Below are positions 3,394 through 57,465 of a DNA stretch of 64,000 nucleotides, piece after piece. Under the pieces are notes generated by a model that was not told the origin of the DNA, searched no databases, and saw only the letters and a list, made by a program, of their open reading frames with translations. The DNA comes from Octopus vulgaris. Lineage: Eukaryota. Made by a program: the position numbers and the translations under genes. Position 1 is the stretch's first letter. Each line of letters starts with the position of its first letter. The stretch covers positions 20,212,001 through 20,276,000 of the forward strand of contig OX597821.1 in the NCBI GenBank assembly GCA_951406725.2, read 5' to 3'.

Positions 3394-3836
3394 AATTCCA
3401 TCCTGGAGGTAGGCCTATTTTTAAAAATATTTATTGCATTGCTCGTGTGTGTATTTATCGTAGTATTGGTAGTTTTTTGAAGCTTTAGTCTTCAATTTTT
3501 ACAAGTGGTATGTTTACCCTTCTTTTATTTAAAATATCTCATATTATACCTGTTTAGGCAGAAGTATTGCTAGCCACCTCATTATTACTGGTTTTAACAG
3601 TAATACTGCTTCCTATATTTCTTTTTTATTGTTTACGCGAGTTTTCTCTTTCAACGGAGCGGGATATTTAAAGTTAGGAATGCACACCAGTTGACATACT
3701 GAATATTTTAGAAATGGATGTTAAATACTGTCTCCGACTGATGATTGCAATGTATGTTTTCTCATGTACAGCATGAAATCAATTGATATTGAGGTATGTA
3801 AATTACCTTCAAATTCCATCCTGAAGGTAGGCCTAT
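3394..3836 (+). mobile_element. Hammerhead-containing unit bounded by 25-bp direct repeats (retrozyme or Penelope pLTR-like)
   Basis: aattccatcctg(g/a)aggtaggcctat occurs at 3394-3418 and 3812-3836, with a hammerhead core between the copies. Confidence 0.6.
3732..3793 (+). ncRNA. Type I hammerhead ribozyme motif
   Basis: CTGATGA at 3738-3744, stem II TGC..GCA, GAAA at 3775-3778, palindromic stem III TCAATTGA, TA cleavage dinucleotide at 3787-3788, short stem I (ctccga/ttgag). Confidence 0.65.
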
Positions 3837-4502
3837 ATTTACATACCACAAACACACACACACAAAAACACAAATACGAATACGTTTACATATACATATA
3901 TACATACATGTACCCATAAATAAATATTTGCATTTATAAGAAAATAGGTTTATCATATATATATATATATATATATATATATATATATATATATATATAC
4001 ATACATACATACATACACACACATACACACACACATACACACACACATACACACACACACACACACACATATATATATATACACATATACACACACTCAC
4101 ATATATATATTCGTTTTTTTTGTTCTTGTTTCGTATACATTCGATCTTTTTTCCAGCGAATCTACTGCTCGTAGCTTAGTTTTTCCTTGGGGCTGGCCAG
4201 ATTGGAGCAATCTCCAGATTAATCAGCCGAAATAGCGAGGATGATCCGGTTCTTGACTGAAGATTACACGCATTGCACTCACGTGCGCCCACGGAGTTAC
4301 AGTAGCTGAATATATAAATTTATAAAAACATGTTCCTTTCATTCATACACAAAGATGGATTGCCCCATTACCATGTTATTTTTATGCATTTATGCTCACA
4401 TACTCACATACATGAGTTAATACATGAATACATGCATGCAAATATATATACACATACACACATATATATGCATGTATATATATATCTATATATATATATG
4501 CC

Positions 4503-4777
4503 ATTGCAGCGTGGAAGGTGTTTATAAGCCATTTAAGAAACACACAAAAGCCGTTCGATTCACTTCAACGTTTAAGTTTAATTTGTCAAAATATTTTCGT
4601 CGCTAAAATCCGCGACCTGTTCACTGACAAAGTCCGTGCAGCACGGACTTTGTCAGTGAACAGGTCGCGGATTTTAGCGACGAAAATATTTTGACAAATT
4701 AAACTTAAACGTTGAAGTGAATCGAACGGCTTTTGTGTGTTTCTTAAATGGCTTATAAACACCTTCCACGCTGCAAT
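4503..4777. repeat. Perfect palindrome with 137-bp arms and a 1-nt spacer at 4640; probable inverted Penelope pLTR
   Basis: 4503-4639 is the reverse complement of 4641-4777 (centre agtccgtgc-a-gcacggact). It lies between (TA)n tracts. Confidence 0.9.
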
Positions 4778-4942
4778 TGTTTTCGTTTCAGCACACGATC
4801 TCAGATCAAATTACTTGCTATGCGAGTACATCTCCGTAATATATATATATATGAATATATGTATATATATATTTATATATAATTATATATATATATATAT
4901 ATGTATATATATATATGTGTGTGTGTGTGTGTGTGTGTGTGT

Positions 4943-5253
4943 GGAGGCGCAATGGCCCAGTGGTTATGGCAGTGGACTCGCGGTCATAGGATCACAGTTT
5001 CGATTCCTAGACTAGGCAGTGTGAGTGTTTATTGAGTGAAAACACCTCAAGCTCCACGAGGCTCCGGCAGGGGGTGGTGGCAATCCCTGCTGTACTCTTT
5101 CGCCACAACTTTCTCTCACTTTTTCTTCTGTTGGCCTGCTCGCTTAGCCAGCAGGGTGGCGTCATTTAAAAGCTAAAACAATGCAAAACGCATTGTGACC
5201 AGCGATGTGTAGCAACATCTGATAGCCTAGTCGGTCACAGTTATCACGGTGAT
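4943..5253 (+). mobile_element. tRNA-derived SINE, family 1
   Basis: A-box tggcccagtgg and B-box gttcgattcc. The head and body are shared with 42236-42608, and the tail with 30787-30900. Confidence 0.8.
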
Positions 5254-7070
5254 ATATATATATATATATATATATATATATATTTACACATTTATCCATC
5301 AATACATTCCTATGTACTCATACACACATGCGTTAAACTTCCTTCTACTTATATGCGCGAAACTGTCTATATAGTCTCACGTCTTTACATCTACATGTAT
5401 AAATACACATGTTTTAAAGCGCGAATCTACATTATATATCTATGTAATGTATATATATATATATATATATCTACGTATATCTTTACATGTATACCCTCAT
5501 ATCTATATATGTATCACAAGCATAGATTCATACACACGTATTTTTGTATGTATACACGAATATTCAAGCACATCTATTCCCAAATATATTTTTTTGACGC
5601 GCAATATATCTACAGAAACATCAAGACAAACACATATTCGCATGTATATACCGAGGTATACATATCCACTCACATGCACACACTCAGTAAGGTATTATGG
5701 CGAAAAGCCATCAACCACTGCCACCACCGGCACCAAAACCACCACCACATCCAACGCCGCCGCTGCCGTCGCCGCCACCACAACCACCACCACCACCACC
5801 ACATCACTCCTCGTAGATCAATCCAATACTACTTTATCGATCTGACAAATAATAAGAGACTCACTCTTCAGTGTGTGGAGATTTGTTTGTTCCCGATAGA
5901 CTTATGGCAATAACGGAAGGAATTTCATCATAATTGGATTTTTTGACTTTACCTTCTCTAGAAAACCAACTTATCATAACCACCACCACAACCACCACCA
6001 CCACCATCACCATTATTATTATTATTATTATTATTATTTTATTATTATTATTATTATTATTATTATTATTATCATTTACTAATAATATTATAGTAGTCGC
6101 ATTGAGAGTAGCAGTAGTAGTTGAGCATTTGTATTTGTATTATAGTTGTTGTTGTTGCTGCTGGTGGTTTCCTTGTATAAATATTTACTCATAGTAAATG
6201 CAAAATAGCGATTCCTAATGCTCCTTCTATTGTAGATGTTTGAGGAAGTACAACAACGGCAACAAGAACAATAAGACAACTGAAACTCTAATTGGCTCTG
6301 CAAGGACTTCTACTGTGTTTCTTTGTCCTTGTGGCAAATAAAACACTCTGAAATTTAAGTTCACATATTTATTTATTTATGATTATTAACTCTGCTCAAC
6401 ACAAATTTTTCTCCGTTTTCAAAGTGTTTTACTCTGTGTGTGTGTATGTATGTGTGTGTTTGTGTGTATGTGTGTGTGTTTGTATGTATGTGTGTATGTG
6501 CGCGTGTTTATGTGTGTAAGTGTGTGTATGTGTGTGCGTTGTGCAGTTGAATGCTTAAGGTTTGGTTATTAGCAGACTTCTATTTGTATTTCGTTGTGTA
6601 AGCAACTGAAAACCTTTGTGAGAGGAGTTGTGACTTCAATTCCTTGTAAAGATTCAAACGAATACTTTGATAAAACCATTTCTGAGAGTCAATTGTATTA
6701 TTAAAATTGTGTCACTCGAATTAGGCAATATGGAAAATGTAGATGTAAGGAATCCATTCCGGTTCAGAAAATAATATGAGCAATGAATGATGGAAATGAA
6801 AATATTTCTTTACATGCGCTTCAAGATTTGAATATTTGTTGGCCGTTACTACGCTTTCCTAACAGTGAGATGAGATAATTTGGAATGTTAAAACTCATTC
6901 TTGGAAACATTTCTAGCATTCCAGTGAAATTACTTGTCCATGTACAACCGAAAATCTTTGAGAAGTTTCGTGATTATATGCATGTCGTTAGTAGTATTAA
7001 TAGGAACATTTTGGCTATTAGAAATCCCAAGTGTCACACATATCGTAACAAAAACCACCCGATAATTTAT

Positions 7071-55813: not shown

Positions 55814-56126
55814 GTAGAATTATTTACATTATTTACATTCGACGGATATTTGCCCTCATCTTGTTTGTTGTTAACACGTTTCCACTGATATACCCTCCAG
55901 CATTCTTCAAGTGTCTTGCGAAAATTTCGAACCTCGGTTCTCATTCCTAAGGTATTTTTCGATGTTATTATTATTATTGTTATTATTATTATTATTATTA
56001 TTATTATTATTATTATTATTATTATTATTATTATTATTATTATTATTATTGTTGTTGTTATTGTTCAGGTCACTGCTTGGAATCGAACTCGGAATTTTGG
56101 GGTTAGTAGCCCGCGCTCTTAACCAC
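55814..56126 (-). mobile_element. tRNA-headed SINE with internal (AAT)n and hammerhead-like 3' region
   Basis: Minus strand: gtggttaagagcgcgggctactaacccc..gagttcgattcc, then (AAT)n, then GACAC-TTGAAGA-a-TGCTG..CAGTG-GAAA-CG-TGTT and a tail of repeated aatgtaaat. Confidence 0.65.
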
Positions 56127-56596
56127 AAACTCCCGCCTCAGTAAACCACTATTGTTCCTGAAAGTTTTTTTTTTTTATATTTACTACGGAATGCTTGAAG
56201 TTAACTTTCTTGCTACACACACACGCACACACATAAACACACACACGGACACCCACACACATATTTCGTTTATGCATTTTGTATATACGTACATATAATT
56301 TAACTTTTTAATGTTAGGAAAACTTCGGTTCCGTAATATATATCTAGTGATTTGGGGCTGTTTTCTTTTCATTTATTTTAGTTCTTTGTTCTTACTGTCT
56401 AAGCCTGGAAAAGGTGAGTAGGGGGTGCAATATTAAATTTTGCTTCCCCACAAAATGATAGTGGGTGCAAGTGCGCCCCCTGCAGCAACTATTCTCGGGC
56501 CCTTGCCTGTGATGAAACGAAACAGTCTTATCACACACTGCGTTGCACTTATTCCGGTTACGAATTTCACTAAGAATACACGTGACTGTTAAAAAG

Positions 56597-56890
56597 GAGG
56601 GCGAGAAGCGTAGTGGTTAGGAGGTTTCCTTTACGATCCCGACATCAAGGCTTCTACTGCTGGACCGGGCAGTTCGATGTATTCGTGGTAAACACTTCAT
56701 CTGACGTTGCTCTGCGATCACTTCGATACGTAGCGCGTGGTGCAGCATGCACATGTAGAAGCAACGTCAATCTGATGGAGGGAGAGAGCTTATGAGCCGC
56801 ACACGTATATGATCATGATAGACAAATTTTCTGTGCAAGTTGTTTCATAAGAAACTGCGAAACCGTGATTCTAGGAACGCGTGACTACCG
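56597..56890 (+). mobile_element. Diverged tRNA-derived SINE
   Basis: ggaggg..gtagtggttagg head and aaacacttcatctgacgttgctc, similar to 54268-54520. Confidence 0.55.
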
Positions 56891-57427
56891 TTGAAACACG
56901 AAACTCTGGAATACTTATCCGCTTTTAATTCTAACTTCCAATTTATGCTACTTTCTAATTAATTCTACTTTCTAACTTCCATTTCAAAGACACTCCTTGT
57001 TATTCTCATCCTGCTACTCATTCCTTTTGCTGCTGTTGGTCAACTTTCCATTGCATATATTTAATGATTTATTCATTTACGTTTTTACTCTTTTATTTGT
57101 TTCAGTCGTGTGACGGCAGCCATGCTGGAGCACCGCCTTTAGTCGAGGAAATCGTCCCCCAGAACTTATTATTTGTAAGTATAGTACTTATTCTATCGAT
57201 CTCGCTAAGTTACAGAGACATAAACATACCAGCATCAGTTGTCAAGCGATGATAGGGGACAAATATAGATACACACACACGCACACTCACATACACACAG
57301 ACACACATACGCACACACACACACACACACACACACACACACACACACACACACACACATATATATATATATATATATATATATATATACCGGAGTAAAC
57401 ACATAAATGTGAAACACGGTAGAAAAA

Positions 57428-57465
57428 CTGTCCGACGAACGGGAACGTGAAACTCCGAGTAACAG
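57428..57465 (+). ncRNA. Minimal type I hammerhead variant
   Basis: CTGT-CCGACGA-ACG(GGAA)CGT-GAAA-CTCCGAG-TA-ACAG, with all three stems complementary. Confidence 0.65.

What the first reader, a model, noticed from the sequence alone, without database searches (positions are those of the whole stretch)
3394..57465. Hidden layer of minimal hammerhead ribozymes scattered through microsatellite DNA
At least six stretches with no obvious primary similarity fold into the same minimal type-I hammerhead topology (stem I, core, stem II, GAAA, short or palindromic stem III, UH, stem I): 3732-3793, 4649-4698 with its mirror, 10965-11054, 30177-30214 (-), 55872-55915 (-) and 57428-57465. Weaker cases are at about 12273-12317, 34974 (-) and 53380. 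Several lie downstream of decayed GIY-YIG-like termini, and most sit next to (TA)n. Minimal hammerheads with palindromic stem III are established features of Penelope pLTRs and animal retrozymes. The variant cores here (CCGACGA, CCGATGA, GTGAACA, TTGAAAA) may be family-specific rather than decay; that part is inference.
Basis: partly seen in the sequence, partly recalled or inferred. Interest (0 to 1): 0.75.

Follow-up and report, generated by a model that had tools for sequence, protein, structure and literature searches.

The report
Penelope-tail hammerheads with swapped cores
The six motifs are leftover tail ends of several jumping-gene families, each carrying a hammerhead-shaped RNA that likely cut itself in the parent element; such tails are known in these elements, but here whole families keep unusual letters in the catalytic core, which suggests the cutting shape is still under selection, though cutting is untested.

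Summary
All six main sites are real type-I hammerhead-shaped motifs (6 descriptor hits against 0.37 in shuffles), and each belongs to a different dispersed repeat family. Three families continue upstream into a Penelope-like RT/GIY-YIG gene in longer copies elsewhere in the genome (30177, 57428, 4649). 3732 is a circularly permuted ~416-nt non-coding unit, retrozyme-like. 10965 and 55872 have Penelope-type inverted insertions but no linked gene. The odd cores U3-A8, G3-C8 and C4 are family-fixed, not decay; only the 55872 copy is decayed from a canonical core. A further family in the genome has A3-U8, so all four Watson-Crick pairs occur at 3-8; with positions 3, 4 and 8 left free, 15 of 16 families pair them (7 of 28 chance hits). 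No GIY-YIG remnant was detected beside the six window copies, and the three weak sites are unsupported. Hammerheads in Penelope tails and U3-A8 are published; natural family-wide G3-C8, A3-U8 and C4 were not found in my searches, but a key paper was unavailable. This scan noted G3-C8 and the four pairs before on other DNA of this genome. Cleavage and expression are untested.

The parts
3394..3842 (+). Retrozyme-like non-coding unit, about 1.07 monomers of ~416-418 nt, with a terminal direct repeat (3394-3418 and 3812-3836)
   Evidence: 24 of 25 family copies run downstream into the sequence found upstream of the hammerhead
3732..3793 (+). Type-I hammerhead, canonical core CTGATGA at 3738-3744, U.U at the base of stem II, 10-nt palindromic stem III, predicted cut after A3788
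   Evidence: position 7 varies A/T/G/C among copies while the rest of the core is mostly kept (20 of 25 CTGANGA)
4503..4635 (-). Inverted 5'-truncated copy of the same element, holding the mirror hammerhead (4582-4631)
4645..4839 (+). 3' end plus tail of a Penelope-like element whose longer copies carry RT, CxxxCxxC linker and GIY-YIG about 1 kb upstream
4649..4698 (+). Type-I minimal hammerhead with swapped G3-C8 core (GTGAACA, 4656-4662), 7-bp stem I, 5-bp stem II, predicted cut after T4691
   Evidence: 23 of 25 family copies; 292 exact matches of a 31-nt pattern ending in the core, control 0
10888..11280 (+). Old repeat between two (TA)n runs; Penelope-type inverted copies in 8 of 25 loci; no ORF linked
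10965..11054 (+). Type-I hammerhead with C4 core (CCGATGA, 10970-10976), 61-nt extended stem II, 8-nt stem III (a perfect palindrome in the family majority), predicted cut after A11049
   Evidence: cores CCGATGA 8, CCAATGA 5, CTGATGA 3, other 9 of 25, the pattern expected from CpG decay of CCG (inference)
30124..30770 (-). 3' UTR and end of a Penelope-like element (RT, CX4CxxC linker, GIY-YIG in longer copies), 5'-truncated in a (CTT)n run, ending at (TA)n
   Evidence: endonuclease ORF upstream in 8 of 25 copies
30177..30214 (-). Type-I minimal hammerhead with U3-A8 core (TTGAAAA, 30211-30205), 6-nt palindromic stem III, predicted cut after A30180; one stem II mismatch private to this copy
   Evidence: 25 of 25 copies share the core
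55815..56126 (-). Repeat with tRNA-like head (56079-56126), (AAT)n and hammerhead; inverted upstream copies in 13 of 25 loci; no ORF linked
   Evidence: ARAGORN calls no tRNA
55873..55915 (-). Decayed copy of a canonical minimal hammerhead (family core CTGAWGA, 4-nt palindromic stem III)
   Evidence: 18 of 25 copies canonical, 7 of 25 TTGAAGA
57390..57417 (-). Inverted tail of the Hydra-type element, joined to the 5' end of the sense copy
57421..57498 (+). 5'-truncated 3' end of a Hydra-type Penelope-like element, ending in AATAAAG before microsatellite
57428..57465 (+). Type-I hammerhead with C4 core (CCGACGA, 57432-57438), 3-bp stem II with GNRA loop, interrupted 9-nt palindrome, predicted cut after A57461
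   Evidence: C4 in 30 of 30 nearest copies; hammerhead parsed downstream of the endonuclease in 25 of 30 loci
11382..11431 (+).
53150..53460 (+). Old low-copy remnant at the weak 53380 site: GIY-YIG-like ending by eye, half core and a hairpin, no GAAA; not a parseable hammerhead

Best explanation
The six motifs are type-I hammerhead folds at the 3' ends of six unrelated repeat families, three of them shown to be Penelope-like retrotransposons and one a retrozyme-like circle unit, and they likely served to cut the parent element's RNA as dimers. Shown: family membership, the ORF link for three families, family-fixed cores, inverted and truncated insertion shapes, (TA)n targets. Inferred: a read-through transcript with two hammerheads pairs them through the palindromic stem III, probably helped by the element's protein, and cuts at the UH site to free a unit-length RNA; the RT-endonuclease copies the RNA from its 3' end into (TA)n and usually stops early, so most insertions keep only the hammerhead-bearing tail, often with an inverted copy in front. 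For the 3732 family the cut ~416-nt monomer would circularise and be copied round the circle, giving the variable permuted ends. The lone window copies are probably inert relics. The variant cores are inferred to be tolerated, probably slower, forms kept by selection in replicating master copies.
For: Every site has many dispersed relatives (115-2684 first-look candidates). Endonuclease ORF upstream in sense: 8 of 25 copies for 30177 (Pfam RVT_1 and GIY-YIG), 4 of 30 loci for 4649 at 969-1112 nt (530-aa RT-EN frame), 25 of 30 loci for 57428 (RWK, DKT, CxxC/CxH as described for Hydra). Inverted upstream copies in 4-16 of 25-30 loci per family, the layout drawn in PMC8557442. Between related U3-A8 families all three stems change and still pair (12 of 30 GIY-YIG loci carry the sister motif). 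With positions 3, 4, 8 free, 15 of 16 multi-locus families and 19 of 23 singletons have a Watson-Crick 3-8 pair, against 7 of 28 hits in shuffles; position 4 is U in 13 and C in 3. Protein relatives of the G3-C8 family from other organisms carry C3-G8 (4 of 27 loci gave a motif, none G3-C8), so the swap is derived and took two changes; single mutants are dead and the double partly active in a Penelope hammerhead in vitro (PMC11167929). C4 runs through successive Hydra subfamilies and a second ORF-linked family (5 of 6 copies).
Against: No cleavage or expression data here. PMC11167929 found cleavage unnecessary for insertion in vitro and no reads ending at the cut; PMC4209133 found low activity even in dimers. 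U4C lowers activity in vitro (PMC3088659), and the youngest Hydra subfamily has U4 (15 of the 17 copies of that clade read CTGATGA, one TTGATGA, one unparsed), which can be read as repair or as plain CpG mutation. The hammerhead fold is not the predicted monomer minimum for 57432, 10970, the A3-U8 copy or the Hydra U4 copy. Families 10965, 55872 and 3732 showed no linked ORF in 25 loci each plus 9, 2 and 9 longer ones. Family samples are the best BLAST matches to the window copies, so they lean towards those copies; the census loci were chosen around hammerheads and PLE genes.
Confidence: 0.78

Rival explanations
1. The motifs are Penelope-tail hammerheads by descent, but the variant cores are crippled ribozymes that hitch-hiked in successful masters; cleavage is dispensable, and the fold survives as a binding or reverse-transcription signal or is slowly drifting.
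For: Cleavage not needed for insertion in vitro and no cut ends in RNA-seq (PMC11167929); Naiads spread without canonical hammerheads (PMC8557442); C4 families gave way to a U4 family; stem II of only 2-3 bp in several families.
Against: The 3-8 pair, a tertiary active-site contact, is kept in all four Watson-Crick forms and hardly ever as a mismatch; G5, A6, A9, GAAA and UH cannot be counted, as the descriptor fixes them, but position 4 was free and is never a purine in 16 families.
Confidence: 0.16
2. The odd cores are post-insertion decay of canonical hammerheads.
For: True for the 55872 copy; the 10965 family is old and its core is mixed.
Against: 25 of 25, 23 of 25 and 30 of 30 copies share U3-A8, G3-C8 and C4; no core variant reaches 10% in four public data sets of four organisms for G3-C8 or 8% in four data sets of three organisms for A3-U8; CpG decay would remove C4, not make it.
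Confidence: 0.03
3. Chance matches to a loose descriptor in AT-rich, repeat-rich DNA.
For: The descriptor was tuned after seeing the sites; a strict one finds 2 and a canonical one 0; Rfam shows no hammerhead hit. Likely true for 12273 and 34974.
Against: 0 of 100 shuffles reach the observed count; 225 hits against 14 per shuffle in 1.1 Mb of loci; fixed position downstream of PLE genes.
Confidence: 0.03

Closest known systems
Minimal type-I hammerheads in pLTRs of metazoan Penelope-like elements (Cervera and de la Pena 2014, PMC4209133; read: main text parts 1-2 of 4, supplement parts 1-2 of 3)
   Same: Type-I layout, short stem I, bulge after A9, palindromic stem III, many families per genome, mostly single truncated copies, pairs on opposite strands, U3-A8 variant.
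   Different: Here stem III palindromes are longer (6-10 nt) in several families and stem II runs from 2 bp to about 60 nt.
Hydra, Neptune and Nematis clades of C-terminal-endonuclease PLEs (Craig et al. 2021, PMC8557442; read: passages and section 11)
   Same: RT then GIY-YIG, zinc-finger-like linker, (TA)n targets, inverted 5'-truncated copies and a tail; RWK, DKT and CxxC/CxH in the 57428 family.
   Different: They report canonical hammerheads in Hydra; here several Hydra subfamilies carry C4, about 1.1-1.2 kb after the stop. Neptune versus Nematis for the other two families is recalled, not tested.
Metazoan non-LTR retrozymes (Cervera and de la Pena 2020, PMC7229834; read: passages and section 14; Li et al. 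2026 bioRxiv 10.64898/2026.07.22.740005, part 1 of 5)
   Same: 3732 family: short non-coding monomer with one type-I hammerhead, head-to-tail continuity, U.U at the base of stem II as in axolotl HHR_Amex2.
   Different: ~416 nt, mostly dispersed partial tandems and inverted copies, not long arrays; circular RNA not shown.
Core variants of the hammerhead (Perreault et al. 2011, PMC3088659, section 8 and passages; Frangieh et al. 2024, PMC11167929, passages; PMC3884650, passages)
   Same: U3-A8, U10.1-U11.1 and 2-bp stem II occur in nature; U4C is a viroid variant; C3G/G8C is a partly active laboratory double mutant.
   Different: Here G3-C8, A3-U8 and C4 are the majority state of multi-copy retroelement families.

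Membership tests
Type-I hammerhead ribozyme | Three stems round the core in type-I order | tested here: met
   Five window sites and the 55872 family majority parse
Type-I hammerhead ribozyme | Canonical CUGANGA core | tested here: not met
   Met by the 3732 and 55872 families only; U3-A8, G3-C8 and C4 in the others. The 3-8 pair itself is kept
Type-I hammerhead ribozyme | GAAA and NUH cleavage triplet | tested here: met
   AUA, UUU, GUA, GUA, GUA in the five intact sites; GUU in the 55872 family
Type-I hammerhead ribozyme | Match to Rfam hammerhead models | tested here: not met
   None at gathering score in 16 loci, none among 41 hits at E<=10 in 3 loci; one search showed only 150 of 329 window hits, none a hammerhead
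Type-I hammerhead ribozyme | Site-specific self-cleavage | not testable with these tools
   No assay; no raw RNA reads available
Penelope-like element pLTR hammerhead | Lies 3' of an RT plus GIY-YIG ORF in longer copies | tested here: met
   Families 30177, 4649, 57428
Penelope-like element pLTR hammerhead | Same ORF link for families 10965, 55872, 3732 | tested here: inconclusive
   No sense ORF adjoining in the loci examined; samples favour short copies
Penelope-like element pLTR hammerhead | Inverted 5'-truncated copy and tail; microsatellite target | tested here: met
Penelope-like element pLTR hammerhead | Two pLTRs flanking a full ORF (partial tandem) | tested here: inconclusive
   One 781-aa copy examined had no upstream pLTR hammerhead; not searched further
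Hydra clade (57428 family) | RWK and DKT motifs; CxxC and CxH round the conserved E and N; (TA)n insertions | tested here: met
   the CxCX5C linker was not examined
Neptune or Nematis clade (30177, 4649 families) | CX2-5CxxC linker before a C-terminal GIY-YIG | tested here: met
Neptune or Nematis clade (30177, 4649 families) | Placement in an RT tree with reference elements | not tested
   No reference set at hand; the labels Neptune-like and Nematis-like are recalled
Non-LTR retrozyme (3732 family) | Short non-coding monomer with one type-I hammerhead in head-to-tail order | tested here: met
   Period ~416 nt, 24 of 25 copies; not so for the other five families, apart from single loci
Non-LTR retrozyme (3732 family) | Tandem units with two or more complete hammerheads | tested here: not met
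   Only partial tandems in the loci seen
Non-LTR retrozyme (3732 family) | Circular RNA in tissue | not testable with these tools

The most novel reading that the evidence does not exclude
Penelope-type hammerheads in this lineage are active and deliberately slow: selection keeps the 3-8 active-site pair in all four Watson-Crick forms and allows C4 because the element's own protein gates cutting, so that full-length RNA is translated before it is trimmed; the family-specific stem III palindromes would keep families from cutting one another. The genome is then a natural allelic series that shows in vivo function for PLE ribozymes and hides thousands of them from standard searches.
Probability: 0.3. 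Interest if true: 0.7.

Novelty: new variant of a known kind. Interest (0 to 1): 0.45.

Why it matters
Hammerheads in Penelope tails are known, but their use is open: PMC8557442 calls their function unclear and PMC11167929 found cutting unnecessary in vitro. A derived double swap of an active-site pair, fixed in a spreading family while single changes are dead in vitro, is evolutionary evidence that the catalytic fold matters in vivo, and it offers natural sequences for a direct assay. It also means descriptors and Rfam models that fix CUGANGA undercount these ribozymes. The window copies themselves are ordinary transposon debris.

Tried and rejected
Rfam: only microsatellite-driven miRNA noise, no hammerhead. 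PDB search with the PLE protein: no match. GIY-YIG remnants beside the six window copies: none significant. ORF links for 10965, 55872, 3732: none; the PLE hits near them were antisense, downstream or kilobases away. Circular permutation for five families: rejected, signals came from single loci. 55872 as a plain tRNA-SINE: not established; of 25 copies 10 begin within 17 nt of the tRNA-like start, 2 begin further inside, 7 lack the head, 5 were counted at the reference edge (four of them through a 20-nt match to the inverted part), 1 (L154) was matched to a head lying far upstream; three loci extend further upstream; ARAGORN finds no tRNA. Expression: no RNA holder listed on record; only assembled contigs, which cannot show cut ends. 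Covariation among copies of one family: changes are mostly unpaired decay, with 4649 subfamily changes concentrated in loop II (one row was taken on the wrong strand and is void). A low-score hit at 26486 and a G3.G8 hit at 60505 were set aside as probable chance. Lunse et al. 2017 (title seen in a reference list) and a review by Hammann et al. (recalled) could not be read; either may already show these cores. PMC10085705 was seen only as a listing. Supplements of PMC8557442 (hammerhead lists) and the bioRxiv preprint were not seen and may bear on novelty.
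Full report
Setting. The window lies in a 2.8-Gb animal assembly (G000), AT-rich and full of microsatellites and retrotransposon fragments. Earlier notes of the scan call it octopus-like.

Observation. Five of the six sites parse as complete type-I hammerheads. A descriptor with a 3-8 pair, U or C at 4, optional bulges and a palindromic stem III gives 6 hits at score 7 or more (five loci and the mirror of 4649) against 0.37 in 100 local shuffles, none reaching 6. 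It was tuned after seeing the sites; a bulge-free version finds 2 and a canonical one 0. Rfam does not see them (one search listed 150 of 329 hits). The stronger evidence is from families.

Families. Each site retrieves its own dispersed family (40 candidates scored per search, 25-30 loci fetched, best matches first). Cores among those loci: 57428, C4 in 30 of 30; 30177, TTGAAAA in 25 of 25; 4649, GTGAACA in 23 of 25 (two rows are the window pair itself); 3732, CTGANGA in 20 of 25 with all four letters at position 7; 10965, CCGATGA 8, CCAATGA 5, CTGATGA 3, other 9; 55872, canonical in 18 of 25. The window's 55872 copy is decayed. The three weak sites do not parse; 53380 has one other copy and no GAAA; 12273 and 34974 had no relative among the loci held and were not searched genome-wide.

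What the families are. 30177: 8 of 25 copies continue upstream into an RT, a CX4CxxC linker and a GIY-YIG endonuclease whose stop lies about 670 nt before the core. 4649: 292 exact matches of a 31-nt pattern; 4 of 30 loci reach an endonuclease ORF ending 969-1112 nt upstream, part of a 530-aa RT-endonuclease frame with relatives in marine invertebrates. 57428: the 3' UTR leads to an endonuclease with the Hydra signature; of 30 loci with that endonuclease, 25 have a parsed hammerhead downstream, mostly 0.94-1.27 kb away, and one upstream RT has RWK and DKT. 3732: no ORF; in 24 of 25 copies the downstream flank runs into the sequence otherwise found upstream, period about 416 nt, with ends from 135 to 313 nt past the core; the window copy has the matching direct repeat. 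That is the shape expected from copying a circular or tandem RNA, as in retrozymes (PMC7229834). 10965 and 55872: no ORF found, but inverted upstream copies in 8 and 13 of 25 loci, the layout described for PLE insertions. The window copies are too truncated to hold endonuclease remnants.

Are the odd cores selected? A sister of the 30177 family, found through Pfam GIY-YIG (148 matches, some with 781-aa frames), has U3-A8 in 12 of 30 loci, with all three stems changed and still paired. A second ORF-linked family has C4 in 5 of 6 copies about 500 nt after the stop (20 loci fetched). In a tree of 30 Hydra endonucleases (midpoint root only) CCGACGA copies sit on the older, longer branches, CCGATGA in between and CTGATGA in the youngest clade: C4 passed through several waves of replicating masters. 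Protein relatives of the G3-C8 family in metagenome contigs gave a motif in 4 of 27 loci, three canonical and one CGGACGA, none G3-C8, so the swap is derived. An A3-U8 family lies 264 nt after another endonuclease (3 independent loci with the core); 865, 177, 466 and 18 contigs of four public runs lay on it with no core variant at 8%; G3-C8 likewise shows no core variant at 10% in four runs. In 1.1 Mb of held loci, with 3, 4 and 8 free, 225 hits (14 per shuffle) fall into 16 multi-locus families, 15 with a Watson-Crick 3-8 majority (12 C-G, 2 U-A, 1 G-C; the 16th is a two-copy tie), and 23 singletons, 19 paired; shuffled hits pair in 7 of 28 (A3-U8 scored below that threshold, and the loci were chosen around hammerheads and PLE genes).

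Mechanism. Shown: sequence, family structure, ORF links, insertion shape. From the literature: such hammerheads cut weakly and as dimers (PMC4209133; PMC6765202, passages); one Penelope hammerhead needs its protein, dies with C3G or G8C and partly recovers with both (PMC11167929). Inferred: dimer cleavage through the palindromic stem III trims the element's RNA; priming at (TA)n and early termination leave tail-only copies. Predicted stem III self-duplexes range from -0.2 to -9.0 kcal/mol, and the monomer fold is the minimum for some families and not for others. Against: no assay, no RNA evidence, cleavage dispensable in vitro, and U4 in the youngest Hydra clade.

Novelty. Hammerheads in PLE tails, U3-A8, U.U at stem II and 2-bp stem II are published; U4C is known from a viroid; G3-C8 appeared only as a laboratory mutant. 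Five full-text searches for the core variants and one for octopus hammerheads returned no natural G3-C8 or A3-U8 family, judged from listings, term counts and the passages named; PMC6155905 and PMC10886601 (passages) added nothing. Lunse et al. 2017, the most likely prior source, was not available. The scan itself recorded G3-C8, C4 and the four pairs on other DNA of this genome; my reading was set before those look-ups and they are not independent support.

Verdict. Real, mostly a known kind of thing; the family-fixed core swaps are a new variant worth a bench test. Interest 0.45.

Noticed in passing
L180:2045-2079 (G000:C4); 3' half also at window 11382-11431 +: Hammerhead family with an A3-U8 core, 2-bp stem II and GUC site, 264 nt after a GIY-YIG stop; many copies in public data of three organisms.
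   Followed up: partly
window 56079-56126 (-) and L131-L155: tRNA-like head with A and B boxes and an (AAT)n run upstream of the 55872 hammerhead; many copies start near the head, a few extend further 5'. It may be a pol III-transcribed, Penelope-mobilised unit like schistosome Sm-alpha (inference); one search found no paper holding all five terms used.
   Followed up: partly
window 15888-16652 +: Decayed Penelope-like RT fragment with no hammerhead nearby; cut off by other sequence.
   Followed up: partly
window 37904-39811 +, also 21539-23371, 24016-25441, 28420-28875, 36399-37067: Several copies of a non-LTR retrotransposon beside (AAT)n runs, with RVT_1 and zf-RVT. Earlier scan notes report rewired hammerheads in tails of such elements; not looked for here.
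   Followed up: no
window 62561-63610 +: 349-aa RVT_1 frame of another LINE.
   Followed up: no
window 58325-59408 -: Broken gag-like frames with a zinc knuckle, similar by eye to frames in L274.
   Followed up: no
flanks of L001-L317: Dozens of further hammerhead types in bystander DNA, with stem II up to about 75 nt and a single U3-C4-A8 core in L218.
   Followed up: partly
L283-L312: In the Hydra lineage the pair at the base of stem II goes A-U, A.G, A.A as the core goes CCGACGA, CCGATGA, CTGATGA; the GNRA loop is mostly kept. It could be compensation between core and stem (speculation).
   Followed up: partly
L194-L200: One GIY-YIG family (7 loci) gave no descriptor hit at score 8 within 2.5 kb of its stop; it may carry another ribozyme form.
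   Followed up: no
window 4582-4698: A transcript through the mirror pair would fold into one long hairpin that masks both hammerheads (inference from the 133-nt perfect inverted repeat).
   Followed up: no
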